A DNA stretch of 64,000 nucleotides from Bacteroidia bacterium. Lineage in GTDB: Bacteria; Bacteroidota; Bacteroidia; Cytophagales; Cyclobacteriaceae. Below, piece after piece: positions 3,581 through 53,921 of the stretch (the first letter of the stretch is position 1; each line of letters opens with the position of its first letter). The notes beneath the pieces are model-generated. The model was not told the DNA's origin, searched no databases, and saw only the letters and a list, made by a program, of their open reading frames with translations. The DNA lies in assembly GCA_030432655.1 (NCBI GenBank), contig JAUILA010000021.1, positions 1 to 64,000 of the forward strand, given 5' to 3'. The translations under genes were made by a program, and so were the position numbers.

Positions 3581-3705
3581 AAAAGAATAAATCGTAAAGG
3601 TGTCAATATACAGGTAAATCAATCCTTTTATGGCATCTTGTAAGGTTTGTAACAAAAAGAAGGCCATCCCGAAGGACAGCCTTTCTGATTTCTTTTCGAA
3701 TTGGA

Positions 3706-4260
3706 TTATCGCCCGCCAAAGAGACGCCAGGCAACGTATAACTGCCATACGTGATTGTTTACGCTGCCCAGATCAGGAATGTCCGAAATATCAGTAATTC
3801 CATAAACATATCGTCCTCCGGCTTCGAGGCCAAGCGGTAGATCAACACCGGCTCCCAGGATAAAGCTCCATTCAGTGTCCTTAATATTATCGTCGTCAAA
3901 ACCGCCCGGAAGTCCCTTGTTGGTTATTAGGCCAAGTTGAGGTCCCGCATAAATATTAAGAATACTGAAGTTTCCCTGCAACAGCAATGGTATTTGAAGA
4001 TAATCAAAATCGATATCATCCGTACCATCCACTTCTGCACCTATTGTACTGTAAAGGAGCTCAGGCTGTATGGCCCATGTTTCGTTTAAATGAACGTTCA
4101 CGAATGCGCCAAAATGAAATCCTGTCTTGGAATCCGTGCTGATATCTTCAATATCTATGTTGGAAAAATTTGCGCCCGCTTTGATTCCAACACCAATTTG
4201 AGAATACGCTGTAAGGGTCGCCAATGACAGTAACATGGCGATCAAAGTGATTTTTTTCAT
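3706..4260 (-). CDS. outer-membrane beta-barrel protein (paralog of 3038..3580)
   Basis: MKKITLIAMLLSLATLTAYSQ signal peptide. Shares GIKAGANFSNI and GGRYVYG..DIS motifs with the neighbouring gene. Confidence 0.6.
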   Translation of the reverse strand: MKKITLIAMLLSLATLTAYSQIGVGIKAGANFSNIDIEDISTDSKTGFHFGAFVNVHLNETWAIQPELLYSTIGAEVDGTDDIDFDYLQIPLLLQGNFSILNIYAGPQLGLITNKGLPGGFDDDNIKDTEWSFILGAGVDLPLGLEAGGRYVYGITDISDIPDLGSVNNHVWQLYVAWRLFGGR

Positions 4261-19063: not shown

Positions 19064-19341
19064 GAGAAGTTGGTTGGTAAAACTCGGTGAATATATAAAT
19101 AATTACTCGCATTTGAAGAAGGGGCTTTATGAACGGTGTCTTATTTGTGCGAACCACCCCGGGGTCAGACGGGTGAGGTGGCGGCCTGATGAGCATCCGG
19201 CAAAATATTGGCAGTCAAAGACTATTCAATAACTATCTGATTATCAATTATGTAGAATGTAAATTTTTGATTGGCACGATTTTGTATTAGGTAGGGGTGC
19301 AGCGCTGCGAAAGTTTAATCATACTATAAACACTGAGCAAT

Positions 19342-20019
19342 ATGAAAAAGAGAATATGGATTGCTTTCGCTTTACTACTTACAGGAATTTCCTGGGCGGA
19401 AGCACAGGTCAAACCTGAATTTGGGATACGTGCAGGGGCGAATTTCGCCAACTGGCGCGGAGAATTATATGACGGGTTCAGTACCCTGCTTGAGGGGACG
19501 AACGCGGTGGAAGCAGAAGGACGTACCGGATTTCACGCCGGGTTTTATATGGTGCAGCCGCTCTCGGAGCGGTGGTCGGTCGAACCGGGTATTTACTATT
19601 CCACGAAAGGAGTGCGGGTATCACAGCGCCTGCTGGATGATACCATGGTGGGCAGCCTGCTGAATGTGAAAGCATCGGTAGCGAATGTGTCCCATTACCT
19701 GGATATGCCGGTGTATTTCCGGTATAATATAACGGATGGATTTCATATTTACGGAGGGCCCCAGGTTTCTTACCTGATGGAGAATAAAGTACGGGCAGAG
19801 GCCGGGTTACTGGGGTTCTCGATCGGTCAGACAGTACCGGTTGATCCGGGATTGAGAAAATGGGATTTCGGACTTTCCGGTGGATTAGGATATGAATTTA
19901 CCAATGGGCTGAATGTACGCGCAGGATATGATCACGGTCTGACAACCCTGGACGAAGGCAGAGGTGATTTTGAGGCTTACAATAAGGCGGTTAAAGTTTC
20001 TGTTGGCTTTACTTTTTAG
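19342..20019 (+). CDS. outer-membrane beta-barrel protein (porin-like, OMP_b-brl_2)
   Basis: Signal peptide MKKRIWIAFALLLTGISWAEAQ, alternating hydrophobic beta-strands, C-terminal F. Confidence 0.6.
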   Translation: MKKRIWIAFALLLTGISWAEAQVKPEFGIRAGANFANWRGELYDGFSTLLEGTNAVEAEGRTGFHAGFYMVQPLSERWSVEPGIYYSTKGVRVSQRLLDDTMVGSLLNVKASVANVSHYLDMPVYFRYNITDGFHIYGGPQVSYLMENKVRAEAGLLGFSIGQTVPVDPGLRKWDFGLSGGLGYEFTNGLNVRAGYDHGLTTLDEGRGDFEAYNKAVKVSVGFTF

Positions 20020-20032
20020 CAGGAGGGGATGT

Positions 20033-20156
20033 ATGTACAGTTGGAGAATTGAGCATACAGCGTGCGTGGGTCAAAAAGTCTGTCATCCCCGTCTATGTAC
20101 AGTGGGAGAATTGAGCATACAGTGTGCGTGGGTCAAAAAGTCTGTCACCCCCGTCC
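20033..20156 (+). repeat. 62-bp tandem repeat, 2 copies (same family as 30367..30800)
   Basis: Unit atgtacagttggagaattgagcatacagtgtgcgtgggtcaaaaagtctgtcacccccgtct repeated at 20033 and 20095. Confidence 0.9.
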
Positions 20157-20354
20157 GGTAACCTGAACGAGTGATTGTCCCTCCAGACGGGGGTCTGGGA
20201 TCGGAGATCCCCGGTAAGCTGGAAGAGTACGATAGGAGGGGCGTAGCGTGGACGCTACGACCATCATTGGATTAAAGAGTAAGTCTCCGTAGCTGCTGGA
20301 TCTCGGGTTACACGACCTTCGGCCGTGTCCCCGAGATGACAGCGCATGAGTCCA
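20143..20354 (+). repeat. ~210-nt structured repeat element, copy A (putative structured RNA / MITE-like)
   Basis: About 93-95% identical to copies at 30786..30998 and 30999..31208. Contains nested perfect stems (cccccgtc...gacggggg, cgtagcg-tgga-cgctacg, ctcggg...cccgag). Confidence 0.7.
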
Positions 20355-20416
20355 TGTCCCCACGCCCTGTTTTTGTTCCCTGTCACCCCACGCCCTGTTC
20401 TTCTTCCCTGTCACCC
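20352..20416 (+). repeat. 27-bp tandem repeat x2 containing the ctgtcaccc core
   Basis: cacgccctgtttttgttccctgtcaccc followed by cacgccctgttcttcttccctgtcaccc. Confidence 0.7.
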
Positions 20417-20422
20417 GGATAT

Positions 20423-21211
20423 TTACTCCTTCTCCCCCTTCCGATCCATGGTTTTCATCAATAAGTCAAGTTTTTCTTCCAGGGCAATAATGCGTTCCTC
20501 GGTCCGTGATGGTGCCTTCATGTGTTCGCTGTAATAGGCCCGGACTTTCCAGATTTCCAGCAGGGCATTCCTGGAGTAATGCAGGATGTCAAAAGCCGGG
20601 TCGTCCGTTTTGAAGGTCAGGTTTTTGTTAATATCGCTCAACCGGCGTACGCGGATTGCATCATCTGTAATCAGCACATACAAGGTTCCCACTTCGAGCA
20701 TATCTTCCTTTCTAACCCGGTCACATAAAAGAATATCCTGATGGTGAATCCCGCAGTTTTCATATTCCATCTCCTTCCCGTCTACCTGGAAGGCCCGTGT
20801 TTTTTCAAACTGTGTGAATGGAAACTGGAAGGAAGGGAGGGAGTTGATAAAGTCTTTGTTCTTATGGCTTACAATATATTCGGTCATCTTATCGATCAGG
20901 ACCAGCGGGGTTTGTTCTTTGAGAAGATCCTTGTCAAGGATGACTTCACTTTCCGTCTTCGCCTTTCCACCTGCAGAGAATAGGTCAAACTTATATAATT
21001 CATTGATTGTGAGTTCTTTGGTGAGAAGGGCGTCAGTACTGATTTTAAAATGCTTCGCTATTTCTATGAGCGTATCTATTTTTGGTTCGGACCGGCCTTC
21101 TTCATAGGCTCCCACACTTGGTCGGGCTAAATTGAACAGCTGAGCAAAATCTGCCTGACTCATTTTCTTCACTGAACGTATTTTTTTGATGTTTTTCCCA
21201 ATTTTTGACAT
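20423..21211 (-). CDS. XRE-family HTH transcriptional regulator with LexA/cI-like S24 domain carrying substituted catalytic residues (Ser to Glu, Lys to Arg)
   Basis: N-terminal HTH_XRE (KKMSQADFAQLFNLARPSVGAYEEG). C-terminal region aligns to LexA VSGMSM...VKRL as VDGKEM...VRRL. Confidence 0.7.
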   Translation of the reverse strand: MSKIGKNIKKIRSVKKMSQADFAQLFNLARPSVGAYEEGRSEPKIDTLIEIAKHFKISTDALLTKELTINELYKFDLFSAGGKAKTESEVILDKDLLKEQTPLVLIDKMTEYIVSHKNKDFINSLPSFQFPFTQFEKTRAFQVDGKEMEYENCGIHHQDILLCDRVRKEDMLEVGTLYVLITDDAIRVRRLSDINKNLTFKTDDPAFDILHYSRNALLEIWKVRAYYSEHMKAPSRTEERIIALEEKLDLLMKTMDRKGEKE

Positions 21212-21450
21212 GTGAATATTTTTTTTCTTTTGTGTAACCTCTTAAGAACTAGTACGTAAATATAAGTAATTAGTTGCTCAAAAAAATAGCAATGACAAAA
21301 AAAGTAGCATTATTTAATTTTATTTATTACTTTTAGAATTAGATGCGAGGCTACATTCAGTATTAGTATACTTTTTATGATTTCCCTCGGGAGTCAAAAA
21401 TATAATTAATACTTTCAATCGATTTATTCACCTCTAACTCAAATCAACCT

Positions 21451-21852
21451 ATGAACGAATACTTCAAAAAAGTACGGGATTACCTGCTGGACCTAAACTA
21501 CAACATCAGCTATGAAGCTGAAACAGACGGTGTCATCGTCGTGGATGAACAAAGTGCAGGAGTGCAAAATCTGGTACTTGGGGTAGCAGACCCGATCCTG
21601 ATCATCGAACAGTTCATTCTGGAGATCAATGGCAACAGTGCAGAAATCTATCGCAGCCTTCTTCAGAAAAACCGCGACATCATCCATGGAGCCTTCGTGC
21701 TTGATGAAAGCGGCACCAAAGTGATTTTCCGGAATACCCTGGAACTTGAAAATCTTGACCTGAACGAACTGGAGGCGTCCTTTAATTCGCTCAGTCTGCT
21801 CCTAAGTGAGTACTCAAACGAACTAATCCAATTTTCTAAGAAAAAACAATAA
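21451..21852 (+). CDS. YbjN/YjfI-like small cytoplasmic protein (putative sensory-transduction regulator fold)
   Basis: 133 aa, acidic. Pattern resembles YbjN-like domain proteins. First gene of the pspA operon, 11 bp upstream of pspA. Confidence 0.4.
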   Translation: MNEYFKKVRDYLLDLNYNISYEAETDGVIVVDEQSAGVQNLVLGVADPILIIEQFILEINGNSAEIYRSLLQKNRDIIHGAFVLDESGTKVIFRNTLELENLDLNELEASFNSLSLLLSEYSNELIQFSKKKQ

Positions 21853-21862
21853 ACATACGATC

Positions 21863-22591
21863 ATGAAAATCTTTAAACGACTATTCAAAATCGGCCAGTC
21901 CGAGGCCCATGCAGCTATAAACAATCTTGAAGATCCCATTAAGCTGACCGAACAGGGTATCCGCGATATGAAGGAAGACCTTGATAAGGCGCTTAATTCA
22001 CTGGCCCAGGTGAAAGCCATGGCCATCCGTGCCCGAAAGGATGCGACCACCTACTCGGAAAAAGCGGAAGAGTATGAGGGAAAAGCGGTGACTTTGTTAA
22101 AGCGTGCTCAAAGTGGTGACATTGATTCATCCGAGGCAGACAGGCTGGCCACCGAAGCCCTTGCACAGAAAGATAATAATCTTCAGCACGCTTCCCGCGC
22201 ATTGGGAGAGCAGACGAAATACGAAGAATCAGTTGAAAAGCTTGAAAGCAATGTCAACCGGCTCAAGTCAACCATTAATCAGTGGGAGAATGAGTTGAAA
22301 ACACTCAAGGCACGCGTCAAAGTGAGTAACGCAACCAAGAATATCAACAAGCAAATGGCGCAGATCGATTCCACGGATACGATCTCCATGCTGGAACGAA
22401 TGAAGGATAAAGTTGCTCAGGAAGAAGCACTGGCCGAATCCTACGAAGAGATGGCCAACGAATCCAGAAGTATCGATGAGGAAATCGATCGTACCCTGGA
22501 GGAGTCCGGTAAATCCGACAAAGCCCGTGAACTGGAAGCTTTGAAGGAGAAACTTGGAATAAAAAAAGAGGACAGTTCTGACAAAGAATAA
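21863..22591 (+). CDS. pspA: PspA/IM30 (ESCRT-III-like) family protein
   Basis: 242 aa all-helical. Alignable with E. coli PspA over the full length (N-terminal amphipathic helix, coiled-coil hairpin). Confidence 0.85.
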   Translation: MKIFKRLFKIGQSEAHAAINNLEDPIKLTEQGIRDMKEDLDKALNSLAQVKAMAIRARKDATTYSEKAEEYEGKAVTLLKRAQSGDIDSSEADRLATEALAQKDNNLQHASRALGEQTKYEESVEKLESNVNRLKSTINQWENELKTLKARVKVSNATKNINKQMAQIDSTDTISMLERMKDKVAQEEALAESYEEMANESRSIDEEIDRTLEESGKSDKARELEALKEKLGIKKEDSSDKE

Positions 22592-22597
22592 TTAATC

Positions 22598-23221
22598 ATG
22601 GGCGAATTACTTGAGGCGGCACTTTCACCAGCAAACCTGGTGATTACAATCCTGGCGGTTTTTGTAGTGATCTACTGGATCACCGTGATCATCGGCCTGG
22701 TGGATGTCGACCTGTTTGATCTCGACTTAGATCTTGACATGGACGTCGATGCCGACGGAATTTCGGTCGGCTGGCTCAACTCGGCCCTTGCCTTTTTCAA
22801 CCTGGCACAGGTGCCCATCATGATCTTCCTGAGTTTCCTTATCATTCCGGCCTGGGGCCTGATACTAATCGTTAACAATGCATTAGGGATTGAATCCTTC
22901 CTGCCCGGATTGCTGGTACTTATTCCTGTATTCATCATCAGTTTGTTCATTGCCAAATTCATGACAATTCCCTTTGTGAAAATTTTTGGGAAAATGTCAG
23001 AGGAGAAGGAGAATGAAGTGGTCATTGGCAAAGTCTGCGAAGTTATTGTTCCCACGAGGGGCAGTAAAGTCGGACAGGCGCTTGTAACAACAAACGGGGC
23101 ACCCCTGCGACTGAATGTCTTTACAACAAAAGGCATCGAGTTGATCAAAGGGGATAAAGGCCTGGTCATTGAATACCAGAAAGAACGAAATATTTATTTA
23201 ATCGAACCTTATAACAATTAG
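22598..23221 (+). CDS. YqiJ/NfeD-like inner-membrane protein (TM N-terminus, acidic DLDLD stretch, C-terminal OB-fold)
   Basis: Multi-TM N-terminal half. C-terminal VIGKVCEVIVP...GQALVTTNGAPLRLNVFT...GDKGLVIEY resembles the NfeD OB-fold. Sits immediately upstream of a flotillin gene as in yqiJK. Confidence 0.6.
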   Translation: MGELLEAALSPANLVITILAVFVVIYWITVIIGLVDVDLFDLDLDLDMDVDADGISVGWLNSALAFFNLAQVPIMIFLSFLIIPAWGLILIVNNALGIESFLPGLLVLIPVFIISLFIAKFMTIPFVKIFGKMSEEKENEVVIGKVCEVIVPTRGSKVGQALVTTNGAPLRLNVFTTKGIELIKGDKGLVIEYQKERNIYLIEPYNN

Positions 23222-23223
23222 AA

Positions 23224-25395
23224 ATGGCAACAAATGTAACGATCGTTTTAATTCTGGTCGGCGTTATCCTCGTAATCGGGATATTGTCGCTCTTTATTAA
23301 AATGTATAGAAAAGCTGTCCAGGGCGAAGCACTCATCAGGACTGGTGTTGGCGATGCAAAAGTTTCATTCTCCGGAATATTTGTCATCCCGGTAATGCAC
23401 AAACTGGAGGTTATGGACATCACCCTCAAAACGGTCAATATATCGAGAATGGGGAAAGATGGTCTCATATGTAAAGACAATATGCGAGCCGATATCAAGG
23501 TGAGTTTCTTTATCCGTGTAAACAAAACCACGGAAGATGTAATTCATGTAGCACAGTCAATCGGATGTCAGCGCGCTTCGGATATTCAGCAACTTGAAAT
23601 GCTGTTTGACGCAAAATTCTCCGAGGCCTTAAAAACCGTAGGTAAGCACTTTGACTTTGTGGAACTCTATAATTCACGAAGCAAATTCAAGGAAAAGATC
23701 CTGGAAGAGATCGGTACGGACCTCAATGGCTATGTGCTGGATGATTGCGCCATAGATTATGTGGAGCAGACATCGATCCTTGATCTTAATGAACAAAATA
23801 TCCTTGACGCACAGGGTATCAAGAAGATCATTGACCTGACGGCCGCAGAAAAGGTGAAGTCCAACCTGATCGAGCGGGAAAAGGAAAAGACCATTAAGAA
23901 GCAGGACGTGGAGGCGCGCGAAACCATTCTCCAGCTGGAAAGGCAGCTTGCGGAGAAGGAAGAGCAGCAGAAACGTGAAATTGATAACATCAAGGCCCGT
24001 GAAGAAGCGGCGATTGCCAAGGTGCGTGAGGAGGAACGTCTCAAGTCCGAAAAAGCACGAATTACCACCGAGGAAGAACTTGGGGTAGCCGAGGAGAACA
24101 AACTCCGTCAGATCGTAGTGGCGCAGAAGAGTAAGGACAAAACGGAAGCGGTTGAAATGGAGCGTGTGGAACTTGCCCGTGCCCTGGAGGCAACCGAACG
24201 CGAGCGGGTGGTTGAGCTGGCGCAGATTGATAAGGAGAAGTCCCTCGAAGTGGAGCGCAGAAATATCCAGGAGGTTATCCGTGAGCGCGTGACCGTGGAG
24301 AAGGCAACAGTGGAAGAAGAGGAAAAGATCAAGGATACACGCGCGAAGGCTGAGGCTGATCGTAATAAGATGGTGGCGATTACGCTGGCCGAACAGAATG
24401 CCCAGGAGGCGCTTGTTAAAGAGATCAAATCGGCCGAAGCTGCCAAACAGTCGGCAGAACATCTTGCTGAAAAAGCGCTGGTGGATGCACAAGCGGAGAA
24501 ATCAGCGGCCGAACACCGCGCAGAAGCCATGAAGACCATGGCCGAAGCAGAAGCCGCTCAGAAAGCAGCTTTAGGTATGTCCGAGGCACAAGTCATGAAA
24601 GCCAAGGCAGAAGCACTCGAAGAGCAGGGTGAGTCGGAAGCCTCCGTGATCGAAATGAAAGCAGAAGCCGAAGCCAAAGGAATCCGGGCCAAGTCCAACG
24701 CGCAGGCGGAAGCCGAAGAGCGCCTCGGATTTACCGCAGCCAAGGTAAACCGGGAGAAAGGGCTTGCCAATGCCGAGGTGACGGAAGTTCAGGCAGCTGC
24801 CGACGAGAAGAAAGGCCTTGCCGACGCCAGGATCATGAAGGAGAAGTTCGCCGCGGATGCAGAAGGCATAAAAGCCAAAGCGGAAGCTATGAAACTCTTC
24901 GACGACCAGGGTATCCTTCACGAAGAGTTTAAGTTACAGCTTGAAAAAGACAGGACGATCGAACTTGCTCATTTCGACATTCAGAAGTATGTGGCAGAAG
25001 CACAGGCGAAAGTACTGGGAGAAGCATTCAAGGAAGCCAACATCGATATCATTGGTGGGGAGTCCATGTTCTTCAACCAGATCGCGGGCGCCATTGCCAA
25101 TGGTAAGTCGATCGACGGACTCGTCAATAACAGCAAAGTGCTGAGCGATATCCGCCATACCTTTTTAGGAAGTGAAGGCGGATCTGACTTCAAGCACAAG
25201 ATCGGTGAATTGCTTAAAAGCTTTAATGTGACCAGTGATGATGTGAAGAATCTCACCATTTCTGCGATCCTCTTTAAGCTCATGGGCAAAGCCGATAATG
25301 CCGACCTGAAGTCAAACCTTCAGCAAATGATGAGCATAGCCAAGTCTGCGGGACTCGATAAGGAGACCCCGAGATCATTGGGACTGGCCGTTTAA
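23224..25395 (+). CDS. flotillin-like SPFH/band-7 protein (YqiK/FloT-type) with long Ala/Glu/Lys-rich coiled coil
   Basis: N-terminal TM anchor, SPFH domain, about 350 aa of EA-rich heptads. Start is 3 nt after the upstream stop. Confidence 0.8.
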   Translation: MATNVTIVLILVGVILVIGILSLFIKMYRKAVQGEALIRTGVGDAKVSFSGIFVIPVMHKLEVMDITLKTVNISRMGKDGLICKDNMRADIKVSFFIRVNKTTEDVIHVAQSIGCQRASDIQQLEMLFDAKFSEALKTVGKHFDFVELYNSRSKFKEKILEEIGTDLNGYVLDDCAIDYVEQTSILDLNEQNILDAQGIKKIIDLTAAEKVKSNLIEREKEKTIKKQDVEARETILQLERQLAEKEEQQKREIDNIKAREEAAIAKVREEERLKSEKARITTEEELGVAEENKLRQIVVAQKSKDKTEAVEMERVELARALEATERERVVELAQIDKEKSLEVERRNIQEVIRERVTVEKATVEEEEKIKDTRAKAEADRNKMVAITLAEQNAQEALVKEIKSAEAAKQSAEHLAEKALVDAQAEKSAAEHRAEAMKTMAEAEAAQKAALGMSEAQVMKAKAEALEEQGESEASVIEMKAEAEAKGIRAKSNAQAEAEERLGFTAAKVNREKGLANAEVTEVQAAADEKKGLADARIMKEKFAADAEGIKAKAEAMKLFDDQGILHEEFKLQLEKDRTIELAHFDIQKYVAEAQAKVLGEAFKEANIDIIGGESMFFNQIAGAIANGKSIDGLVNNSKVLSDIRHTFLGSEGGSDFKHKIGELLKSFNVTSDDVKNLTISAILFKLMGKADNADLKSNLQQMMSIAKSAGLDKETPRSLGLAV

Positions 25396-25465
25396 CGGGC
25401 CAGCTGTATTAATCAAAACGCCCGGGAAGTTGGTCCCGGGCACTTAAACCCTACACCAGTAAAAT

Positions 25466-28400
25466 ATGAGCGATAAGGAAACTTTGTCGACGGGTGGAAA
25501 CTACGAGGTTCTGAAGTCACGCCTGAATGCAGCAGTTGAAGATTTGAAGTCTTCCCTCGCCGGCCTGAATGAGGCTAGGAAAGATACATTCGGCAATATA
25601 GAACAGAAGCTGGTTGCTACCGAACGGATCAGTACGCAGAATAATTGTGTTCCGAGGGATATGATAGCACTGGGCGATAAGCTCCTGTTTGGCTTTAATG
25701 TGCACATCGGGCTAAAAGCCCAGGTCAGTGTGTCCGATGTATTCTCCATCCACAAATATGAAGATCATGCTTTTCATGAACTGGATAATGCGCTTATCAG
25801 CGACGATCAGTTTGAAGATGATTTTCATAAGCTATATAAATACTACAAGGAAACCACCTTCGTGAAATTCGCGGTCCGCGGTCCTTACCTGTATATGATA
25901 TTCCGTATCGGCAAGGACGAAGAGGATATTAAGGCGTTCAAATGGCAGATCAATGCGGAAGGACTCACCTATATCGATAATCGCAGCGAGTACGAATTTT
26001 CCTATCCCGATCAGCATGAATTCTCCTGGAAAAAGACCACGCGTGACAATCAGCGTCAGGGTAAATTTCCCCATGTTTCCATTGAGGATAAGTTGTTCGT
26101 GGAAACAATAGGAGGTGACCTGACCATAAAGATAGAGGACAATACCGATAACGGTCATGGCATTTACAAGGAGGAAGTGGAGGATGCCGACCAGACCCTG
26201 GATGACAGTGAGATCTATTATGCAATTTACGGCAGCCTGATCCTGTTGAAAATCCGCCCCTACCGCGAAGAGGCATACCGTTACCTCGTGTATAACAGTA
26301 AGCTTCAGCAGGTGCGAAATATACCGTCAATCCGGGAAGCATGTATCTTTCTTCCGGACGACCAGGGTATTCTGTTCACAAATGGATATTACCTGCAATC
26401 CGGTGACTTCAAGGCGTTTGAACGCGACGAAGCCAATCTTAAGTACGAACTGACTATTGCCTCTCCCAATGGGGAGGATTATATGTATGTTTTCTACCAG
26501 CCCGGAATCGGTAATTACCTGTTGCTTCCATATAATATAATTCTCCGTCAGATCGGCACCCCGATATGGTGCCATGGATACGCGCTGTACCAGAACGGCG
26601 AATTGGCTTATTTCACGGCAGATGAGCAGCCAAAGAAGCATCATGTAGTGCGGATCTGGCAAACTTCATATACCGCTCCTGATTTTGAACTGACCCACAC
26701 CAACAATTCTTACCTGTCAAAAGTCGGTAACAAAGATATCGTACGAGCGATGGCGGAATGTCAGGAGATCATTACACTTACGGAGAAAGGAGAGGATTAT
26801 GATGGTTTGTATATTGATCTGTCAAGACAGGCGACAGATGTTATCGACTCCTATTACTGGCTGGATCATGACGAGGCGTTTAATGTAAAAAGTCCGCTGG
26901 AAAATATCCGGCAGTCAGCGAATGCCGCCATTGATGAATTTGACAAAGTAGTCAGGATCCGGAAGGAAACCGGCCAGCGTACGAAAGCTGTTTTTGACGA
27001 GGGGTCCTCACATATTAAGAAAACATCCCGCGAAAGCGGACAATCCCTTGATACGTATGTGGCTCACCTGACTACGTTCAGAAAACTGATGGGGGAAACG
27101 GAAGGCTTGCGTCAGTTGCGGTTTGCAGATGAGGAAGCGGTGGATAAACAGCTTGCGGAATTGAAACAGGCCAGTGAGAGTTACGCGGCATCCTGCGTAC
27201 GGTATCTTCTTCGCCCTGAATCGCTCGAGCCTTACGAAAAACGTATTGACGAATTAGCGGCTCGGATTGATGAGGTGAAAAAGGTGACCGAGGCCAAGGA
27301 ATTGCAGGAGAATATTAATCAGACAGGTAAGGATCTGGAGATGCTGATCGACGTGGTGAGTAATCTTAAAATTGAAGATGCCACACAAACGACAGAGATC
27401 ATTGAAAATATTTCAGCACTTTTCGCGAGGGTTAACCAGCAAAGGGCCCGGCTGAAAAAGCACAGGCAGAATCTGTCGCGGGAGGAATCCAAGGCAGAGT
27501 TTGTGGTCCAGATGAAACTGGTTGATCAAAGCCTCACCAATTACCTGGATCTGTGCGATACACCGGCCCGTTGCGAGGAATACCTTTCAAAGCTGTTAAT
27601 CCAGATTGAGGAGATGGAGAGCCGTTTCGGAGATTTTGAGGACTTCTTTTCTGATATTGCCGATAAACGGGAGATGGTGGTCGATGCCTTTGAATCCCGC
27701 AAGAATGTGATTAATGAAGAGCTCGGTAGAAAGCGTCAGAGCCTTTTTCAGTCCGGTAAGCGAATACTTCAAAGTATAGAAAACCGCGTCTTGAAAATGA
27801 ATGACGCCGCCGAAATTCAGGCCTATTTCACTGCGGATTTAATGATTGAGAAAGTTCGGTCCACCATTGAAAAATTGCGTGAAATTGATGATCCGGTTAA
27901 AGCGGATGATCTGGCTGGACAGCTTAAATCATTACGGGAAGACGCTTACAGGCAATTGTCGGACAGGCAGGATCTGTATGCCGGAGATGATGATATAATT
28001 AAATTCGGCAATTTCCAGTTTTCCATTAATTCGCAGCAACTTGAATTGTCCATTATTCCACGGAATGAATCACTCTATTTCTACCTGGGCGGCACAAATT
28101 TTTACGAAAAAGTCAATGACGAATTTCTGGAGAATAACAAGGAAATATGGGACCAGGTCTATCAGTCCGAATCGCCGGATGTATACCGGGCGGAGTTTCT
28201 TGCCTATTCACTTTTCCAGCAATGGCGGATCCAGGGCAATGAAGTATTAAGTGACATTGAAGCGATGGAGGATCAGGATCTGCTGGAACGGATCCGGAAG
28301 GAAATGTCCACCCGGTTCAACGAAGGATACGCGAAAGGCATTCATGATGAAGATACCCTGAAGATCCTGAAGGCAATTTTCTCATTTTACTCAGCAGGGG

Positions 28401-30310
28401 GGACGCTGATCTACCCGGCGGATATCCGTGCGGAAGCAATGAAATTCTGGTTTTTCACCCTCGATGAGGGTTCCAGGAAAAAATGGAACGACAGGATCAA
28501 GGGTCTTGGATTAATTTATTCCGTTTTTAATAATCCTGCGATTTATGCGGAAACCTGCGCGCTCCTTTTACCACTGATTACAGAATCGTCGCGTGATTCC
28601 TTAACCCGCAGTCAGTATGAAGAGGTGACCCGTTACCTTGTGGAAGAAATGGCGGTGGAAACCACCTTCATCTTGTCTGCAGAAGCAGCGGCAACCGGCG
28701 TTAATTTCAAGGCAGCCCTGAAGAAAAGAAAGGCAGTAAAGACCTTTGAAGAATCGCTCAGGAAAGCGGGTGAAACACCTGCAGAACAATTTGCCATGGT
28801 GTGCGAATGGTTAAGGGTTTTTAGTAATCCGGAAGAACGTGAGTTTATGCAGGAAGCCGCTTTGTACATATTAATGGAAGATGTTTTCAGGGTGTCTGAT
28901 ACCGTTATGAAACACCAGATTGGCGGAATGAAGGGAACACATCCGAAGATCAGTGACCAGAATGAATTGGCGTTGAACTTTAATAATTATTTCAAGCGCC
29001 TTTTAGACTATACAACAGGTACTTTACCGGCGTTCCGTGAATTTCAGCACCGGAAGCAGGAAAAGGTAAAAACGTTTTCCGACGAACTTCGGCTGGATTC
29101 CTTTAAGCCAAAAGTCATGAGCAGTTTTGTGCGAAACAAACTGATTAATGATGTCTATCTTCCCCTCATAGGTGCCAACCTGGCCAAGCAAATTGGGGAG
29201 GCCGGAGCCAATCAGCGAACAGATCTGATGGGACTATTGCTGTTGATCTCTCCGCCCGGCTATGGCAAGACTACGCTTATGGAATATATTGCCAACCGCC
29301 TGGGGCTTATATTTATGAAAATTAACGGTCCGGCCATTGGTCACGATGTTACTTCCGTTGATCCGGGAGAAGCGTCAAGTGCCACTGCCCGCCAGGAGCT
29401 GGAAAAGCTGAACCTGGCTTTTGAAATGGGCGATAATATTATGATATACCTGGATGACATCCAGCACGTGAGCCCCGAATTTTTGCAGAAGTTCATTTCG
29501 CTTTGTGATGCCCAGCGGAAAATTGAAGGTGTTTATAAAGGTAAAACCCGCACCTATGATTTTCGCGGTAAGAAGGTTTGTGTGGTAATGGCAGGCAACC
29601 CCTACACCGAGAGCGGTGAGAAGTTTGCTATACCTGATATGCTGGCTAACCGGGCCGACATCTATAATCTTGGCGACATCATTGGTGATTCCTCCCATGC
29701 TTTCAAATTGAGTTACATCGAGAACTGTATCACGAGTAACCAGACCCTTAATAGCCTGGCCGGTAAAAGCCGCGAGGATATCTATGCACTGATCAAGTCT
29801 GCAGAAGACGGAACGGCAGCCGACACCCTCACCGGCAACTATTCTCCAGATGAAATTTCAGATTACCTCAAAGTATTTAAAATGCTTCTGAAGGTCCGGG
29901 ATGTCATCATGACCGTCAATAACGAATACGTTCGCTCAGCAGCACAAGCAGATGAATTCCGGACTGAACCTCCGTTTAAACTGCAAGGTTCTTATCGCGA
30001 CATGAATAAGATCGCGGAAAAAGTATTTCCGGTCATGAATGAAGACGAGTTGAATATTATCCTGTCGGATCATTATGAGAATGAAGCGCAGTCACTCACC
30101 CGCGGGGCTGAATTTAACCTGCTTAAATACAACCAGCTGACTGATCAGCTGACCGACGAAAACCGGAAACGATGGGATTATATAACCAGTGTCTTTATGA
30201 AACAGCAAAAGCAGAAAGGATACGGGGATAATTCAACGGCGATGCTCGTGGAGAATATGGAAGAAATCAGTGACGGGATTCGTGAGATTGGAAAGGCATT
30301 GAAGAAATGA
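25466..30310 (+). CDS. giant (1614 aa) protein with C-terminal MoxR-like AAA+ ATPase module; N-terminal ~1200 aa of unknown function (beta-rich region + long coiled coil)
   Basis: Walker A LISPPGYGKTT (about 29245), Walker B IMIYLDDIQH, sensor block VVMAGNPYTESGEKFAIPDMLANRAD (compare MoxR ATQNP...LDRF). No recognisable N-terminal domain. Confidence 0.75.
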   Translation: MSDKETLSTGGNYEVLKSRLNAAVEDLKSSLAGLNEARKDTFGNIEQKLVATERISTQNNCVPRDMIALGDKLLFGFNVHIGLKAQVSVSDVFSIHKYEDHAFHELDNALISDDQFEDDFHKLYKYYKETTFVKFAVRGPYLYMIFRIGKDEEDIKAFKWQINAEGLTYIDNRSEYEFSYPDQHEFSWKKTTRDNQRQGKFPHVSIEDKLFVETIGGDLTIKIEDNTDNGHGIYKEEVEDADQTLDDSEIYYAIYGSLILLKIRPYREEAYRYLVYNSKLQQVRNIPSIREACIFLPDDQGILFTNGYYLQSGDFKAFERDEANLKYELTIASPNGEDYMYVFYQPGIGNYLLLPYNIILRQIGTPIWCHGYALYQNGELAYFTADEQPKKHHVVRIWQTSYTAPDFELTHTNNSYLSKVGNKDIVRAMAECQEIITLTEKGEDYDGLYIDLSRQATDVIDSYYWLDHDEAFNVKSPLENIRQSANAAIDEFDKVVRIRKETGQRTKAVFDEGSSHIKKTSRESGQSLDTYVAHLTTFRKLMGETEGLRQLRFADEEAVDKQLAELKQASESYAASCVRYLLRPESLEPYEKRIDELAARIDEVKKVTEAKELQENINQTGKDLEMLIDVVSNLKIEDATQTTEIIENISALFARVNQQRARLKKHRQNLSREESKAEFVVQMKLVDQSLTNYLDLCDTPARCEEYLSKLLIQIEEMESRFGDFEDFFSDIADKREMVVDAFESRKNVINEELGRKRQSLFQSGKRILQSIENRVLKMNDAAEIQAYFTADLMIEKVRSTIEKLREIDDPVKADDLAGQLKSLREDAYRQLSDRQDLYAGDDDIIKFGNFQFSINSQQLELSIIPRNESLYFYLGGTNFYEKVNDEFLENNKEIWDQVYQSESPDVYRAEFLAYSLFQQWRIQGNEVLSDIEAMEDQDLLERIRKEMSTRFNEGYAKGIHDEDTLKILKAIFSFYSAGGTLIYPADIRAEAMKFWFFTLDEGSRKKWNDRIKGLGLIYSVFNNPAIYAETCALLLPLITESSRDSLTRSQYEEVTRYLVEEMAVETTFILSAEAAATGVNFKAALKKRKAVKTFEESLRKAGETPAEQFAMVCEWLRVFSNPEEREFMQEAALYILMEDVFRVSDTVMKHQIGGMKGTHPKISDQNELALNFNNYFKRLLDYTTGTLPAFREFQHRKQEKVKTFSDELRLDSFKPKVMSSFVRNKLINDVYLPLIGANLAKQIGEAGANQRTDLMGLLLLISPPGYGKTTLMEYIANRLGLIFMKINGPAIGHDVTSVDPGEASSATARQELEKLNLAFEMGDNIMIYLDDIQHVSPEFLQKFISLCDAQRKIEGVYKGKTRTYDFRGKKVCVVMAGNPYTESGEKFAIPDMLANRADIYNLGDIIGDSSHAFKLSYIENCITSNQTLNSLAGKSREDIYALIKSAEDGTAADTLTGNYSPDEISDYLKVFKMLLKVRDVIMTVNNEYVRSAAQADEFRTEPPFKLQGSYRDMNKIAEKVFPVMNEDELNIILSDHYENEAQSLTRGAEFNLLKYNQLTDQLTDENRKRWDYITSVFMKQQKQKGYGDNSTAMLVENMEEISDGIREIGKALKK

Positions 30311-30323
30311 CAGCATGGCGGAT

Positions 30324-30347
30324 GGTCGGAGCGTCCACGCTCCGACC
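30324..30347 (+). terminator. perfect 10-bp stem-loop immediately after the giant gene stop (no U-tract)
   Basis: ggtcggagcg-tcca-cgctccgacc, 14 nt downstream of the TGA. Confidence 0.4.
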
Positions 30348-30366
30348 AACAGTCCCTGTCACCCCT

Positions 30367-30800
30367 ATGTACAGTTGGAGAATTGAGCATACAGTGGGCG
30401 TGAGTAAAAAAGTCTGTCACCCCCGTCTATGGACAGTTGGAGAATTGAGCATACAGTGTGCGTGGGTTAAAAAGTCTGTCACCCCCGCCTATGGACAGTT
30501 GGAGAATTGAGCATACAGTGCGTGTGAGTAAAAAAGTCTGTCACCCCCGTCTATGTACAGTTGGAGAATTGAGCATACAGTGTGCGTGGGTTAAAAAGTC
30601 TGTCACCCCCGTCTATGTACAGTTGGAGAATTGAGCAAACAGTGGGCGTGAGTAAAAAAGTCTGTCACCCCCGTCTATGTACAGTTGGAGAATTGAGCAT
30701 ACAGTGTGCGTGAGTAAAAAAGTCTGTCACCCCCGTCTATGTACAGTTTGAGAATTGAGCATACTGTGTGCGTGGGTCAAAAAGTCTGTCACCCCCGTCC
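30367..30800 (+). repeat. 62-bp tandem repeat array, 7 copies, two alternating unit variants
   Basis: Copies start at 30367, 30429, 30491, 30553, 30615, 30677 and 30739. Variants differ at gtgggcgtgagtaaaaaa versus gtgtgcgtgggttaaaaa. No unique spacers. Confidence 0.9.
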
Positions 30801-30998
30801 GGTAACCTGAACGAGTGATTGTCCCTCCAGACGGGGGTCTGGGATCGGCAGATCGCCGGTAAGCTGGAAGAGTACGATAGGAGGGGCGTAGCGTGGACGC
30901 TACCACCATCATTGGATTAAAGAATACGTCTCCGTAGCTGCTGGATCTCGGGTTACACGACCTTCGGTCGCATCCCCGAGATGACAGCACGTGAGTAC
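30786..30998 (+). repeat. ~210-nt structured repeat element, copy B
   Basis: See copy A. Has a register-shifted hairpin, cggc-agatc-gccg, where the other copies have gggatc...gatccc. Confidence 0.7.
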
Positions 30999-31208
30999 CT
31001 GTCACCCCCGTCCGAAAATCTGAGCGAGTGCTTGTCTCTCCAGACGGGGGTCTGGGATCGGTAGATCCCCGGTAAGCTGGAAGAGTACGATAGGAGGGGC
31101 GTAGCGTGGACGCTACGACCATCATTGGATTAAAGAATACGTCTCCGTAGCTGCTGGATCGCGGGTTACTCGACCTTCGGTCGCATCCCCGAGATGGCAG
31201 AGAATGAG
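30999..31208 (+). repeat. ~210-nt structured repeat element, copy C (overlaps the annotated ltaE ATG)
   Basis: Tandem to copy B. The element's terminal ccccgagatgRcag supplies the ATG at 31194. Confidence 0.7.
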
Positions 31209-31238
31209 AAATACCGTGATTTTTCCTATTTTTCACCT

Positions 31239-32261
31239 ATGATCATCGATTTGCGCAGTGATACTGTAACCAAACCCACTCCGGGAATGCTGGATGCCAT
31301 GATGTCGGCTGAGGTTGGCGACGATGTATTCGGCGAAGACCCCACCGTCAATGCCCTGGAAGAAAAATGCGCTTCGCTTTTTGGCAAGGAGGCCGCCCTG
31401 TTTTGTCCGTCCGGTACCATGACCAACCAGATCGGGATCAATATCCTGACCAGTCCTTACGAGGAAGTCATCTGTTACAGGAACAGTCACATTTACCTTT
31501 ATGAAGGTGGCGGAATTGCCGGCAACAGTGGATTATCATTCCGTTTACTGGATGCCGATAACGGCCGGCTCACCCGTGACCAGGTGGAAGCGGCCATAAA
31601 TCCGGATGACGTTCACTTTCCCCGCACTTCAGTGGTTTCACTGGAGAATACGGTTAATAAAGGCGGAGGCTCGTGTTACGACCTCAATGAAATCCGCAAG
31701 ATCAGCCGTCTTTGTCGTGACAGAGGCCTGGGACTGCACCTGGATGGCGCCCGCTTGTTTAACGCACTGGTGGCCAGGCATGAATCGCCCAGTGATTACG
31801 GCCGGCTCTTTAATACGATCTCTCTCTGCCTGTCGAAAGGACTGGGCGCCCCGGTCGGATCGGTTCTGATTGCCGACAAATCCCTGATCGCCAAGGCGCG
31901 CAGAATGCGAAAAGTATTCGGCGGAGGAATGCGCCAGGCAGGATTCCTGGCGGCCGCAGGGATCTATGCACTGGATAATCACGTTAACCGGCTTGAGGAT
32001 GATCACCGGAGGGCGACCACCCTGGCGGCGGTGCTTTCCGCCTGTTCCTGGGTAACCGAAGTGTTCCCGGTGGAGACAAATATCGTCATTGTGAAGTTGA
32101 AAGAAGGCCTGACCAATGAACAGGTTTTAGGAGAATTCAGCGAAAAAAATGTACTGGCAACGGGCTTTGGACCTGGGTTGATCCGCTTCACAACCCACCT
32201 GGATTTTACTGATTCACATCTTGAGGAGGCCGTTAAAAAGCTTCGCCCGATATCCTTTTAA
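31239..32261 (+). CDS. ltaE: low-specificity L-threonine aldolase
   Basis: [14 protein letters not shown] start is typical of LtaE. Class-I/II PLP aldolase sequence. The longer ORF from 31194 starts inside the repeat element. Confidence 0.8.
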
Positions 32262-32268
32262 GAGGGAG

Positions 32269-32445
32269 TTAGTAGGTTCGGTCCCGCACATGTACAAGGT
32301 AATAAACAATGGCCGCCGCGAAGATAAGGGCGAAAATTGTCCATAAGATCTTATTGGTTTCGCTAAGCCGGGTATTCTTATTCCATACATCGTAAATAAC
32401 CCAGACAGCGCAGGCAATTCCCAGTAACCAGATTAATTTAGACAT
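32269..32445 (-). CDS. PLDc_N-like small membrane protein (58 aa)
   Basis: Not in the supplied track. MSKLIWLLGIACAVWVIYDVWNKNTRLSETNKILWTIFALIFAAAIVYYLVHVRDRTY matches the PLD N-terminal small-protein pattern (xIxDV...K.LW......P..G.I.Y). Its ATG overlaps the stop of the upstream EamA gene (ATGTCTAA). Confidence 0.5.
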   Translation of the reverse strand: MSKLIWLLGIACAVWVIYDVWNKNTRLSETNKILWTIFALIFAAAIVYYLVHVRDRTY

Positions 32446-33320
32446 TCTTATTTCGTTTGCTCACTAAATAAACACCTGCCATGATAATCAGCGCATAAAT
32501 CACAGTCAGCAAATCAAGCTGATCTTCACCGGCAGCAAGGGCAACAATGGTTGCGAATACAGGCTGAAGATAAATAAAAATGCCGACAACCGAAGAATCA
32601 ACATAGTTGAGTGCCCAGGCATTAAGCAGGTAGACGACAAACGTAGCGGCAAGTACCACATATCCCAGGCTCCACCAGGTAAGATCCGGAAATGATGACC
32701 AGTCCGCTGAGAACACCTGCTGCAACCCAACCGGAACCATCATAAGCGCCCCATAAAGAAATACCCACTTCAGCACGGTGGCATGATGATAAGTCCGCAT
32801 AAGTGGTTTTACCAGTACCAGGTAGGTGGCATAAGTGATGCCGTTAAGCAGAATGAATAAGTCTCCTGTAAACGTACCATTCTCCAGCGAAACACCCCCT
32901 TTGGTAAGCAGCAGAAGCACACCGGCCAACCCGACAAGCACACCTGTGATCTTCATCATCGTCAGTCGTTCATGCCTGAGAAAAGCCGCCACCATCAACA
33001 CCGCAATCGGGGTGGTGGTCATGATCAGGGATGCGTGGATGGGCGTGGTGAGGCTAAGCCCTTTGAAATAGAAGAACTGGTTGATCGCCGTGCCGAAAAA
33101 GGCGCAGCGAATAAGCAACCAGTGATCACGACGCCTGACTTTCTCAGTGGGAAAAGTCCGCGCAACCATCCAGAACAACAAGGTGGAAACCGAAACGCGC
33201 ATTACCACGAACGCCAGCGGCAGGAGATACTCCGGCACCACATATTTCGCAATAGTATAATTCGCCCCGTAAATAAGCGTGACTAGCAAAAGGGCAAGGT
33301 AAACCAGGGCGGTACGCGGC
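32438..33320 (-). CDS. EamA/DMT family transporter
   Basis: 10-TM protein with two EamA-type repeats. Likely start is MPRTALVYLALLL at 33320, since the long ORF N-terminus is not protein-like. Confidence 0.7.
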
Positions 33321-33379
33321 ATAGGTAAAACTATAGATTGCACATGGAAAATCTTACCTTTACAGGGTAAATTACAACT

Positions 33380-51654: not shown

Positions 51655-51694
51655 TTTCCTTAACTGTGAACGAAGTGAACAGTCCTTCCGTAGG

Positions 51695-53913: not shown

Positions 53914-53921
53914 GGTTCCGA

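What the first reader, a model, noticed from the sequence alone, without database searches (positions are those of the whole stretch)
20033..31208. The island is bracketed by direct copies of the same composite repeat (62-mers + structured element)
The left block (20033-20416) and right block (30367-31208) are in the same orientation. They enclose exactly the regulator plus the 5-gene operon, about 9.95 kb. The flanking genes are ordinary: an OMP on the left, ltaE on the right. Direct repeats of this length could mediate excision, amplification or loss of the island by homologous recombination, or could mark a repeat-mediated insertion.
Basis: inference. Interest (0 to 1): 0.55.

Follow-up and report, generated by a model that had tools for sequence, protein, structure and literature searches.

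The report
Lineage-specific spacer repeats flanking PspA operon
The two repeat blocks are real, but related bacteria carry the same genes at the same chromosomal place without any repeats, so the repeats are late, species-specific spacer DNA on either side of an old resident operon and not the ends of an inserted island.

Summary
Two same-orientation composite blocks lie at 20032-20416 and 30321-31210. Each combines tandem 62-mers with a structured unit of about 211 nt (B). They enclose exactly an HTH/S24 regulator gene and a CesT-PspA-207aa-flotillin-AAA operon. Three of the four block/unique junctions are reproduced 100% in unitigs from two independent sequencing runs.

A related Cytophagales genome (L085) is colinear from the symporter to rarA. 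It has the same OMP, regulator, operon and ltaE order but no repeats, and its OMP/regulator spacer is 46 nt with an ordinary terminator. A second relative (L086) has the operon followed by ltaE after 83 nt. Cassette and flanking proteins are similarly diverged from L085. No integrase, transposase or RAYT lies in or next to the bracket. A third relative (L005) lacks the OMP gene, the cassette and the repeats altogether.

The repeat family was found nowhere else. The best reading is a lineage-restricted modular intergenic repeat, of the BOX, BIME or BrickBuilt kind. It arrived in, or expanded within, two spacers after divergence from these relatives. Exact identities of 83 and 74 nt between the blocks remain a plausible but untested substrate for RecA-mediated deletion or duplication. 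Interest is low.

The parts
20032..20155 (+). Left block, module A: two tandem 62-nt units (TATGTACAGTKGGAGAATTGAGCATACAG..GTCTGTCACCCCCGTC), the 'gggtcaaaaag' variant
   Evidence: TRF period 62, 2.0 copies, 95% matches; nhmmer E about 1e-21
20142..20352 (+). Left block, module B: a single copy of the ~211-nt structured unit. Its first 14 nt (CTGTCACCCCCGTC) are also the last 14 nt of the preceding 62-mer
   Evidence: 96% identical to the right B1 over 203 nt; alignment; nhmmer E 2.8e-76
20358..20416 (+). Left block, module C: 28-mer x2.1 (CCCCACGCCCTGTTCTTCTTCCCTGTCA), unstructured, ending 6 nt from the regulator stop codon
   Evidence: TRF; no fold
30321..30365 (.). Start of the right block: an isolated hairpin GGTCGGAGCG-TCCA-CGCTCCGACC (30324-30347). 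It is an inverted copy of the hairpin inside B with one compensatory T-A to G-C change, and it is followed by the junction motif CCCTGTCACCCC. It lies 11 nt after the stop of the 1614-aa gene
   Evidence: Inverted repeats I1-I3, 85-89% complementary; DNA fold -14.3 kcal/mol, z -5.1; weak nhmmer match to B positions 99-125 on the minus strand
30365..30799 (+). Right block, module A: seven tandem 62-nt units. Only the last unit before B has the same 'gggtcaaaaag' variant as the left-block units
   Evidence: TRF period 62, 7.0 copies, 93% matches; unit listing
30786..30998 (+). Right block, module B copy 1
   Evidence: TRF period 213, 1.9 copies, 94%
30999..31210 (+). Right block, module B copy 2, the most diverged copy. 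Homology to the relatives' ltaE upstream region resumes at about 31215-31218
20423..21211 (-). HTH_3 + Peptidase_S24 (LexA/CI-like) regulator, transcribed divergently from the operon. It is 6-7 aa longer at the C-terminus than the L085 orthologue
   Evidence: Pfam; 84% identity to the L085 orthologue
21451..30310 (+). Five-gene operon: CesT_Tir_1/YbjN (21451-21852), PspA/IM30 (21863-22591), 207-aa protein (22598-23221), 723-aa flotillin-family protein (23224-25395), 1614-aa DUF3686+DUF7902+AAA protein (25466-30310)
   Evidence: Pfam; source names 'flotillin family protein' for homologues; the operon class is described in PMC11237479
19342..20019 (+). Left flanking gene: OMP beta-barrel. It is syntenic with the cassette in L085 and absent together with the cassette in L005
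31239..32261 (+). Right flanking gene: ltaE (beta-eliminating lyase), with the corrected start at ATG 31239. A conserved TAnnTTTC box at 31227-31234 lies outside the repeat

Best explanation
The two blocks are copies of a lineage-restricted, non-coding, modular intergenic repeat. The family has four modules: a 62-nt minisatellite unit; a ~211-nt hairpin-rich unit (B) containing a REP-like GTAGCG-TGGA-CGCTAC hairpin; a 28-nt unit; and a free inverted copy of the hairpin. The modules are joined through a shared CTGTCACCCC(CGTC) junction.

Shown:
- The regulator plus CesT-PspA-flotillin-AAA cassette was already at this chromosomal position, between the OMP gene and ltaE, in the common ancestor shared with related species.
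- The relatives have short, ordinary spacers there.

Inferred:
- The repeat entered, or was copied into, the two spacers on either side of the cassette later. On the left it replaced the ancestral bidirectional terminator. On the right it filled the spacer upstream of the ltaE core promoter.
- It then expanded in tandem (2 versus 7 62-mers; 1 versus 2 B units), by slipped-strand pairing or unequal exchange at the shared junction motif.
- The second locus may have arisen by short-range copying or gene conversion, or by trans-mobilisation from an element elsewhere in the genome.
- The GC-rich hairpins may now act as transcript-end or insulator structures.
- As a by-product, the cassette is flanked by ~310 nt of ~95% identical direct repeat. 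RecA could use this to delete or duplicate the cassette.

The repeats are not att sites or island ends.
For: - Anatomy and orientation.
- Synteny without repeats: L085 is colinear with window 14988-35307 at 72-77% nt except at the spacers. Its OMP/regulator spacer is 46 nt and holds AAGCCCCTGCAGAGGGGCTTTTTTT. L086/L087 have the operon followed by ltaE after 83 nt.
- Cassette proteins (75-92% identity to L085) diverge like the flanking proteins (70-91%), which argues for vertical co-inheritance.
- B copies differ by only 4-6% while the orthologous DNA differs by 23-28%, so the repeat copies are much younger than the synteny, or are homogenised.
- There is no integrase, transposase or RAYT within or beside the bracket, although a canonical tRNA-Ser/integrase element elsewhere in the window shows what one looks like here.
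- The shared junction motif occurs 11 times against 0.14 expected.
- The hairpin is kept through a compensatory change in the inverted free copy.
- The same cassette in L085, L223 and L224 has no flanking direct repeats.
- The junctions are independently reproduced in two runs.
Against: - Genome-wide copy number is unknown, because only 64 kb of the source genome is visible. In that stretch the only two loci are those flanking the cassette, which could point to a specific link with the cassette.
- No homologue of any module was found in any collection, so the 'dispersed repeat family' label rests on analogy.
- The nearest relatives are distant (about 22-30% nt divergence). The timing of arrival is therefore only loosely bounded, and loss of the repeats in all three relatives is unparsimonious but not excluded.
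- Neither a terminator role nor recombination has been observed.
Confidence: 0.75

Rival explanations
1. The bracketed 9.95 kb is a mobile island, and the direct repeats are its ends. They would be either the product of Campbell-type integration through a pre-existing repeat or the substrate that moved the island in.
For: The blocks enclose exactly the 6-gene cassette. The cassette is a discrete unit found in other neighbourhoods in more distant Cytophagales. One relative (L005) lacks it at this locus. The regulator is LexA/CI-like, as in many mobile elements.
Against: L085 and L086 have the cassette at the same place without repeats. L005's gap also removes the OMP gene and leaves no repeat copy, so its end points (window 19138 and 31218) are not the repeats. 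Cassette and flanks are equally diverged. No recombinase is present. There are no flanking repeats around the cassette in L085, L223 or L224.
Confidence: 0.05
2. Module B is a functional structured RNA gene or cis-regulatory RNA that has been duplicated, for example an sRNA or a leader for ltaE. The 62-mers would be accessory sequence, and the position next to the cassette would be functional.
For: B is hairpin-rich (minus-strand fold z -3.2, internal hairpin z -5.9). A C-to-T change in B2 keeps a predicted plus-strand pair as G-U. The right block sits directly upstream of ltaE.
Against: There is no Rfam match even at E<=5. No homologue appears in 1.4 Mb of Cytophagales loci or in any public collection searched. 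Relatives have the same genes without B. The left copy lies between two convergent stop codons. With three near-identical copies there is no covariation to test. No Bacteroidetes-type -7 box lies in the blocks.
Confidence: 0.1
3. The blocks are non-autonomous transposable elements (MITE-like). A transposase encoded elsewhere in the genome would mobilise them, and they would have inserted independently into the two spacers.
For: B starts with CTGTCACCCC and has GAGATGACAG near its 3' end, an 8/10 imperfect inverted match read directly from the sequence. The size of about 210 nt and the intergenic location are typical. The P. gingivalis BrickBuilt element shows that a minisatellite can ride inside a MITE (PMC4596501).
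Against: The inverted match is short, lies about 10 nt inside the right end, and is not significant on its own. No target-site duplication is recognisable at either block. No transposase is in the window. No other copy occurs in the 64 kb window.
Confidence: 0.1

Closest known systems
BOX elements of Streptococcus pneumoniae (modular boxA-boxB(n)-boxC intergenic repeats; from my own knowledge: Martin et al. 1992, Croucher et al. 2011)
   Same: Both are non-coding and intergenic and are built from distinct modules. One short module is tandemly reiterated a variable number of times next to structured modules. Both are species-restricted and have no transposase of their own.
   Different: There is no sequence similarity. 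The unit sizes differ (62/211/28 nt here against 59/45/50 nt). BOX has more than 100 dispersed copies, whereas here only two loci are visible and the genome-wide count is unknown.
BrickBuilt minisatellite/MITE of Porphyromonas gingivalis (Klein et al. 2015, PMC4596501)
   Same: Both come from the phylum Bacteroidota. Each is a tandem repeat without spacers, flanked by non-repeated 'leader/tail' subunits. Both are always intergenic and species-specific.
   Different: The BrickBuilt unit is 23 nt, not 62. BrickBuilt has small terminal inverted repeats, 19 copies per genome and demonstrated promoter activity. Here no convincing terminal inverted repeats were found, the copy number is unknown and no promoter motif was found.
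REP/BIME elements of enterobacteria and pseudomonads (from my own knowledge)
   Same: Both have a GC-rich imperfect palindrome containing GTAG. Both occur in the two orientations (three copies inside B, one free inverted copy), combined with other short motifs into mosaics, in spacers at gene 3' ends.
   Different: No RAYT (Y1 transposase) is in the window. Only four hairpin copies are seen. The element is dominated by a 62-nt minisatellite and a ~211-nt unit, which BIMEs lack.
Genomic islands and integrative elements bounded by att direct repeats
   Same: A direct repeat lies on each side of a discrete gene cassette that is absent from one relative.
   Different: The repeats are 0.38 and 0.89 kb composite arrays, not a short att core. 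There is no integrase. Relatives carry the same cassette at the same place without repeats. A real example of this type (tRNA-Ser, integrase, relaxase, 16-nt direct repeat) lies at about 47.6-58.5 kb in the same window.

Membership tests
Integrase-type genomic island with att direct repeats | Site-specific recombinase (integrase) encoded inside or at the edge of the bracketed segment | tested here: not met
   Pfam on all seven ORFs from 19342 to 31236 finds no integrase or transposase. The nearest integrase is at 56747-58237 and belongs to a different element.
Integrase-type genomic island with att direct repeats | Empty site in relatives that carries a single copy of the repeat | tested here: not met
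   L005 has the symporter 142 nt from ltaE, with no repeat and no OMP gene.
Integrase-type genomic island with att direct repeats | The repeats co-occur with the island wherever the island is present | tested here: not met
   L085 and L086 carry the cassette at the same locus without repeats. L223 and L224 carry it in other neighbourhoods. No flanking direct repeats were found around the cassette in L085, L223 or L224.
MITE | Terminal inverted repeats at the element ends | tested here: inconclusive
   There is only an 8/10 match, CTGTCACCCC against GAGATGACAG, lying about 10 nt inside the 3' end of B (sequence). The inverted repeats reported are the internal hairpin copies, not the termini.
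MITE | Target-site duplication flanking each insertion | tested here: not met
   The flanks caggaggggatg|...|cccggatatt (left) and cagcatggcg...|...|aataccgtga (right) show no duplicated target.
MITE | Many dispersed copies and a related autonomous IS in the genome | not testable with these tools
   Only 64 kb of the source genome is available. The source assembly is not indexed. No copies were found elsewhere in the window.
REP/BIME | Imperfect palindrome with a conserved GTAG-type head, present in both orientations | tested here: met
   GGGCGTAGCG-TGGA-CGCTACGACC occurs three times on the plus strand. The inverted free copy GGTCGGAGCG-TCCA-CGCTCCGACC carries a compensatory change.
REP/BIME | Cognate RAYT gene and tens to hundreds of copies | tested here: inconclusive
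   No Y1 transposase was found among 45 window ORFs scanned with Pfam. The rest of the genome was not seen.
BOX-like / BrickBuilt-like modular intergenic repeat | Distinct modules, one of them tandemly reiterated in variable number without spacers, strictly intergenic | tested here: met
   There are 2 versus 7 62-mers and 1 versus 2 B units. Both blocks fill spacers and do not overlap the corrected coding sequences.
BOX-like / BrickBuilt-like modular intergenic repeat | Species- or lineage-restricted distribution | tested here: met
   There were zero hits in genome contigs, metagenome contigs, viral contigs, plasmids, phages and protein space, and none in three relatives. The same strain is present in two Logan runs.
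CRISPR array | Conserved repeats separated by unique spacers | tested here: not met
   The whole 62-nt period is 93-98% conserved, so there are no spacers.
Known RNA family (Rfam) | Covariance-model match at or near the gathering score | tested here: not met
   There are no matches in either block at the gathering threshold or at E<=5.

The most novel reading that the evidence does not exclude
The B unit, with its 62-mer train, could be a previously undescribed structured non-coding element. It might be a new kind of non-autonomous mobile element or a structured RNA that specifically occupies the two transcript-end spacers of the PspA/flotillin/AAA stress cassette. In that case the bracketing would be functional, for example insulation, co-regulation, or programmed amplification or loss of the cassette, and not incidental.
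Probability: 0.08. Interest if true: 0.55.

Novelty: new member of a known kind. Interest (0 to 1): 0.2.

Why it matters
The main value is as a correction. A pair of long direct repeats around a tidy gene cassette looks like an island, but comparative synteny shows the cassette is resident and the repeats are latecomers.

The repeat family itself is new at the sequence level, with no relatives in any collection searched. It adds a Cytophagales example to the small set of modular bacterial spacer repeats that contain a minisatellite, such as BOX and BrickBuilt.

There are also practical consequences. These blocks break short-read assemblies exactly at the cassette borders. They could also cause real or artefactual copy-number changes of a PspA/flotillin/AAA membrane-stress operon.

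Tried and rejected
- **Exact-pattern scans for B.** Scans of the B core returned 0 hits in genome contigs, metagenome contigs and viral contigs. The 62-mer core returned 0 hits in viral contigs.
- **Protein-space trick.** The 169-aa spurious ORF that runs through B2+B1 was searched against 5.8 billion proteins to catch other copies called as genes. There were no hits.
- **BLAST.** blastn 'distant' of the whole right block against plasmids and phages found no match.
- **Local searches.** blastn-short and nhmmer --max against the window plus 86 Cytophagales loci (1.42 Mb) found no further copy.
- **Periodic junction motif.** CTGTCACCCC x3 at 50-80 nt spacing gave more than 120 loci in metagenome contigs. 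All of them are unrelated minisatellites of many periods with no other similarity. Controls in viral contigs gave 6 loci for the true motif against 1, 1 and 6 for shuffled 10-mers. The hits are therefore background from the abundance of tandem repeats, and the lead was dropped.
- **BrickBuilt identity.** Rejected, because its unit is 23 nt and it is specific to P. gingivalis.
- **CRISPR, tRNA-derived or Rfam family.** Rejected.
- **Defence-system annotation of the cassette.** PADLOC gave only generic HTH and weak AAA hits. The cassette instead fits the CesT/Tir-PspA + flotillin + AAA class of PMC11237479.
- **Fetching more of the source genome.** The assembly is not in the gene-position index.
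- **Polarity of the L005 difference.** The window, L005 and L085 are about equidistant, so insertion against deletion of OMP+cassette could not be decided.
Full report
**1. Observation**

The repeats exist as described.
- Tandem Repeats Finder reports a 62-nt period x2.0 at 20032-20155 and x7.0 at 30365-30799. It also reports a 213-nt period x1.9 at 30786-31200 and a 28-nt period x2.1 at 20358-20416.
- The repeat finder places a single copy of the ~211-nt unit (called B here) at 20141-20342, in register with the two right-hand copies.
- An alignment of the three B copies has 93% mean column identity. blastn gives 96% (left against right-1) and 94% (right-2 against right-1).
- All modules are on the + strand. 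Diagnostic words occur only at these two loci in the 64-kb window: 9 hits against 0.19 expected, and 6 against 0.00.
- Every module boundary carries CTGTCACCCC, which occurs 11 times against 0.14 expected.
- The last 14 nt of each 62-mer (CTGTCACCCCCGTC) are identical to the first 14 nt of B. The 62-mer train therefore runs seamlessly into B.

B is hairpin-rich.
- The minus strand folds to -86 kcal/mol (z -3.2) and the plus strand to -82 kcal/mol (z -1.6).
- Its internal hairpin GGGCGTAGCG-TGGA-CGCTACGACC folds with z -5.9 as DNA.
- The 62-mer and the 28-mer do not fold better than shuffles.
- A free copy of the same hairpin, inverted and carrying a compensatory T-A to G-C change, opens the right block at 30324-30347, 14 nt after the stop codon of the last operon gene.

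The junctions are not assembly artefacts. Logan unitigs from two independent runs (SRR24442557, ERR3420974) are 100% identical to window 20293-25321, 25303-30394 and 31131-34270. Each stops where 31-mers cease to be unique among the three B copies or inside the 62-mer train. The array copy numbers themselves are not independently confirmed.

**2. What is enclosed and what flanks it**

Pfam gives the following:
- An OMP beta-barrel protein at 19342-20019.
- An HTH_3 + Peptidase_S24 regulator on the minus strand at 20423-21211.
- On the plus strand: CesT_Tir_1/YbjN, PspA/IM30, a 207-aa protein, a 723-aa protein, and a 1614-aa DUF3686 + DUF7902 + AAA protein, ending at 30310.
- A beta-eliminating lyase (ltaE) downstream.

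Homologues of the 723-aa protein are named flotillin family protein or YqiK by their sources. This is the operon class described by Ravi et al. 2024: the CesT/Tir-PspA dyad with a band-7/flotillin protein, a novel AAA+ ATPase carrying beta-propeller repeats, and a small membrane protein (PMC11237479). PADLOC gives only generic matches.

The ORF finder's ltaE start at 31194 lies in the tail of B2. The conserved start is ATG 31239 ([11 protein letters not shown]), preceded by a conserved TAnnTTTC box, as in the relatives.

**3. Comparative evidence**

The organism is a Cytophagales bacterium with few sequenced relatives. The best ltaE match in GTDB representatives is 81%, from an uncultured Roseivirgaceae MAG. 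The next matches are at or below 66% (Fulvivirga, Cyclobacteriaceae). Three relatives are informative.

(a) **L085** (GCA_964563925.1).
- It was reached through a 91%-identical flotillin.
- It is colinear with window 14988-35307 at 72-77% nucleotide identity.
- Its gene order is cyt-bd I/II, symporter, [sulfatase], OMP, regulator, CesT, PspA, 207-aa, flotillin, AAA, [245-aa gene], ltaE, EamA, rarA. The bracketed genes are extra in L085.
- It has no trace of any repeat module.
- Its OMP/regulator spacer is 46 nt and holds a textbook bidirectional terminator.

(b) **L086/L087** (two Logan runs, flotillin 91%). The AAA gene is followed after 83 nt by ltaE, again without repeats.

(c) **L005** (the Roseivirgaceae MAG).
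- The symporter (91% aa) is followed after 142 nt by ltaE.
- Homology to the window stops at 19138 and resumes at 31218.
- The 12.08 kb that is missing comprises the OMP gene, both blocks and the cassette, and no repeat copy remains.

The window, L005 and L085 are about equidistant: 77-79% nt on the symporter and 70-72% on ltaE. Insertion against deletion in L005 therefore cannot be polarised. Identity of the window's proteins to L085 is 75-92% for the cassette and 70-91% for the flanks, which is what vertical co-inheritance predicts.

At greater distance, the 6-gene cassette is intact but sits in different neighbourhoods in Mangrovivirga cuniculi CP028923 and in a JGI contig. Fulvivirga and others keep ltaE-EamA-rarA without the cassette upstream. 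None of L085, L223 or L224 has direct repeats flanking the cassette.

**4.

That is what L085 and L086 show. The predicted empty site (OMP, one repeat copy, ltaE) is not what the one cassette-less relative shows.

No integrase, transposase or RAYT is encoded in or near the bracket. The same window does hold a canonical integrative element next to tRNA-Ser, with a restriction-modification system, a relaxase, a primase, VapE, a tyrosine integrase and a 16-nt direct repeat. The contrast is instructive.

What survives is the generic point. The left block aligns to the last 62-mers plus B1 of the right block over ~310 nt at ~95%, with exact runs of 83, 74, 48 and 40 nt. From general knowledge of RecA-dependent recombination, that is enough for occasional deletion or duplication of the intervening 10 kb. 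This is inference; nothing here shows that it happens.

**5. What the repeats are**

No module has a detectable relative anywhere:
- GTDB representative genomes, JGI metagenomes, IMG/VR, PLSDB and INPHARED.
- Protein space, using a spurious ORF through B.
- 1.42 Mb of Cytophagales loci.
- Rfam, even at E<=5.

A scan for the periodic junction motif returned more than 120 metagenomic minisatellites. These share nothing else with the element, and shuffled 10-mers gave similar counts in a control collection. This is background.

The anatomy has these features:
- Distinct modules.
- One module reiterated in variable number without spacers.
- A REP-like GTAG hairpin used in both orientations and maintained by a compensatory change.
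- Strictly intergenic placement at gene 3' ends.
- Restriction to one lineage.

This is the anatomy of modular bacterial spacer repeats such as pneumococcal BOX elements and enterobacterial BIMEs (my own knowledge) and the P. gingivalis BrickBuilt minisatellite/MITE (PMC4596501).

B copies differ by 4-6% while orthologous DNA differs by 23-28% from the nearest relatives. The copies are therefore much younger than the synteny, or they are kept alike by gene conversion.

Only the 62-mer adjacent to B in the right block has the 'gggtcaaaaag' variant found in both left-block units. This fits an original '62-mer + B' unit being copied between the two spacers and the right-hand train then expanding.

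On the left, the block replaced the ancestral terminator, and the regulator ORF now runs 6-7 codons further and stops right at the block. On the right, the block was inserted between the operon stop and the conserved ltaE core promoter box.

**6. Mechanism and confidence**

Shown:
- The repeats are real, direct and lineage-specific.
- The cassette is resident.
- The relatives lack the repeats.
- No recombinase is present.

Inferred:
- Arrival after divergence from the relatives.
- Tandem expansion by slippage or unequal exchange at the shared junction motif.
- Copying between two spacers 10 kb apart, by gene conversion, short-range transposition or trans-mobilisation; this is unresolved.
- A possible role of the hairpins as transcript ends.
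- Potential RecA-mediated deletion or duplication of the cassette.

I put 0.75 on 'secondary, lineage-specific modular spacer repeat, not island ends'. The rivals are a MITE mobilised in trans (0.10), which is compatible with the main reading as a sub-mechanism, a functional structured RNA (0.10), and true island ends (0.05).

The main weakness is that only 64 kb of the source genome is visible. Whether these are the only two loci or two of many cannot be decided here.

**7. Novelty and interest**

At the sequence level the repeat is new. In kind it is a new member of a known class. The cassette is a described PspA operon type. The finding is best scored low (0.2).

The residual novel reading is that B is a new structured element specifically tied to the transcript ends of this stress cassette. 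I put it at about 0.08 probability.

Noticed in passing
window 47611-58525: A canonical integrative, mobilisable element lies next to tRNA-Ser(tga) at 47611-47696. It carries a PstI-like restriction endonuclease and a C5 methylase (47922-49941), a MobA/VirD2 relaxase (50145-51329), a Toprim primase, VapE and a tyrosine integrase (56747-58237). A 16-nt direct repeat GCGAATTGTGGGGCGA occurs at 47757 and 58497, the latter inside a 12-nt tandem repeat. A tRNA-3'-end-like CTCCTCTGCA lies near 58310. The exact boundaries were not resolved.
   Followed up: partly
window 31194-31239: The longest-ORF start of ltaE (ATG 31194) lies inside the tail of repeat unit B2. The conserved start shared with L005 and L086 is ATG 31239, which sits 4 nt after a conserved TAnnTTTC box. 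This suggests a leaderless or very short-leader ltaE mRNA in this clade.
   Followed up: partly
L005 1-3705 (CAYGOW010000407.1), versus window 19138-31218: A Roseivirgaceae MAG has the symporter gene 142 nt from ltaE. The OMP gene and the whole PspA cassette (12.08 kb in the window) are missing there, with end points that are not the repeats. The direction (insertion or deletion) could not be decided, because the three relatives are equidistant.
   Followed up: yes
L085 4378-6252 and 17174-17911: The relative that lacks the repeats has other extra genes close to the window's repeat-bearing spacers. A sulfatase lies between the symporter and the OMP gene, and a 245-aa gene lies between the operon and ltaE. 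The borders of the cassette region are therefore recurrent sites of gene gain and loss.
   Followed up: partly
window 20423-20445: The HTH/S24 regulator is 6-7 residues longer at its C-terminus (…MDRKGEK) than its L085 orthologue, and its stop codon sits 6 nt from the left block. This is consistent with the block having removed the ancestral stop and terminator.
   Followed up: partly
L224 7232-17176 (Mangrovivirga cuniculi CP028923) and L223 7229-17187: The divergent regulator plus the CesT-PspA-207aa-flotillin-DUF3686/AAA operon is conserved as one 6-gene unit at 75-78% flotillin identity, in entirely different neighbourhoods. The unit relocates over deeper evolutionary time without recognisable flanking repeats.
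   Followed up: partly
L089-L208 (metagenome contigs): More than 120 unrelated minisatellites, with periods from 9 to about 80 nt, contain the 10-mer CTGTCACCCC. A control with shuffled 10-mers in viral contigs gave comparable counts (6 against 1, 1 and 6). This looks like background from the sheer number of tandem repeats, not a shared motif.
   Followed up: yes
window 3038-4260: Two adjacent OMP beta-barrel genes (236 aa and 184 aa, minus strand) belong to the same Pfam families as the OMP gene that flanks the left block. Their relationship to it was not examined.
   Followed up: no
window 19139-19258: About 120 nt upstream of the OMP gene has no counterpart in L005 or L085. It contains a GC-rich segment (ccaccccggggtcagacgggtgaggtgg). 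It is unrelated to the repeat modules, and its origin is unknown.
   Followed up: no
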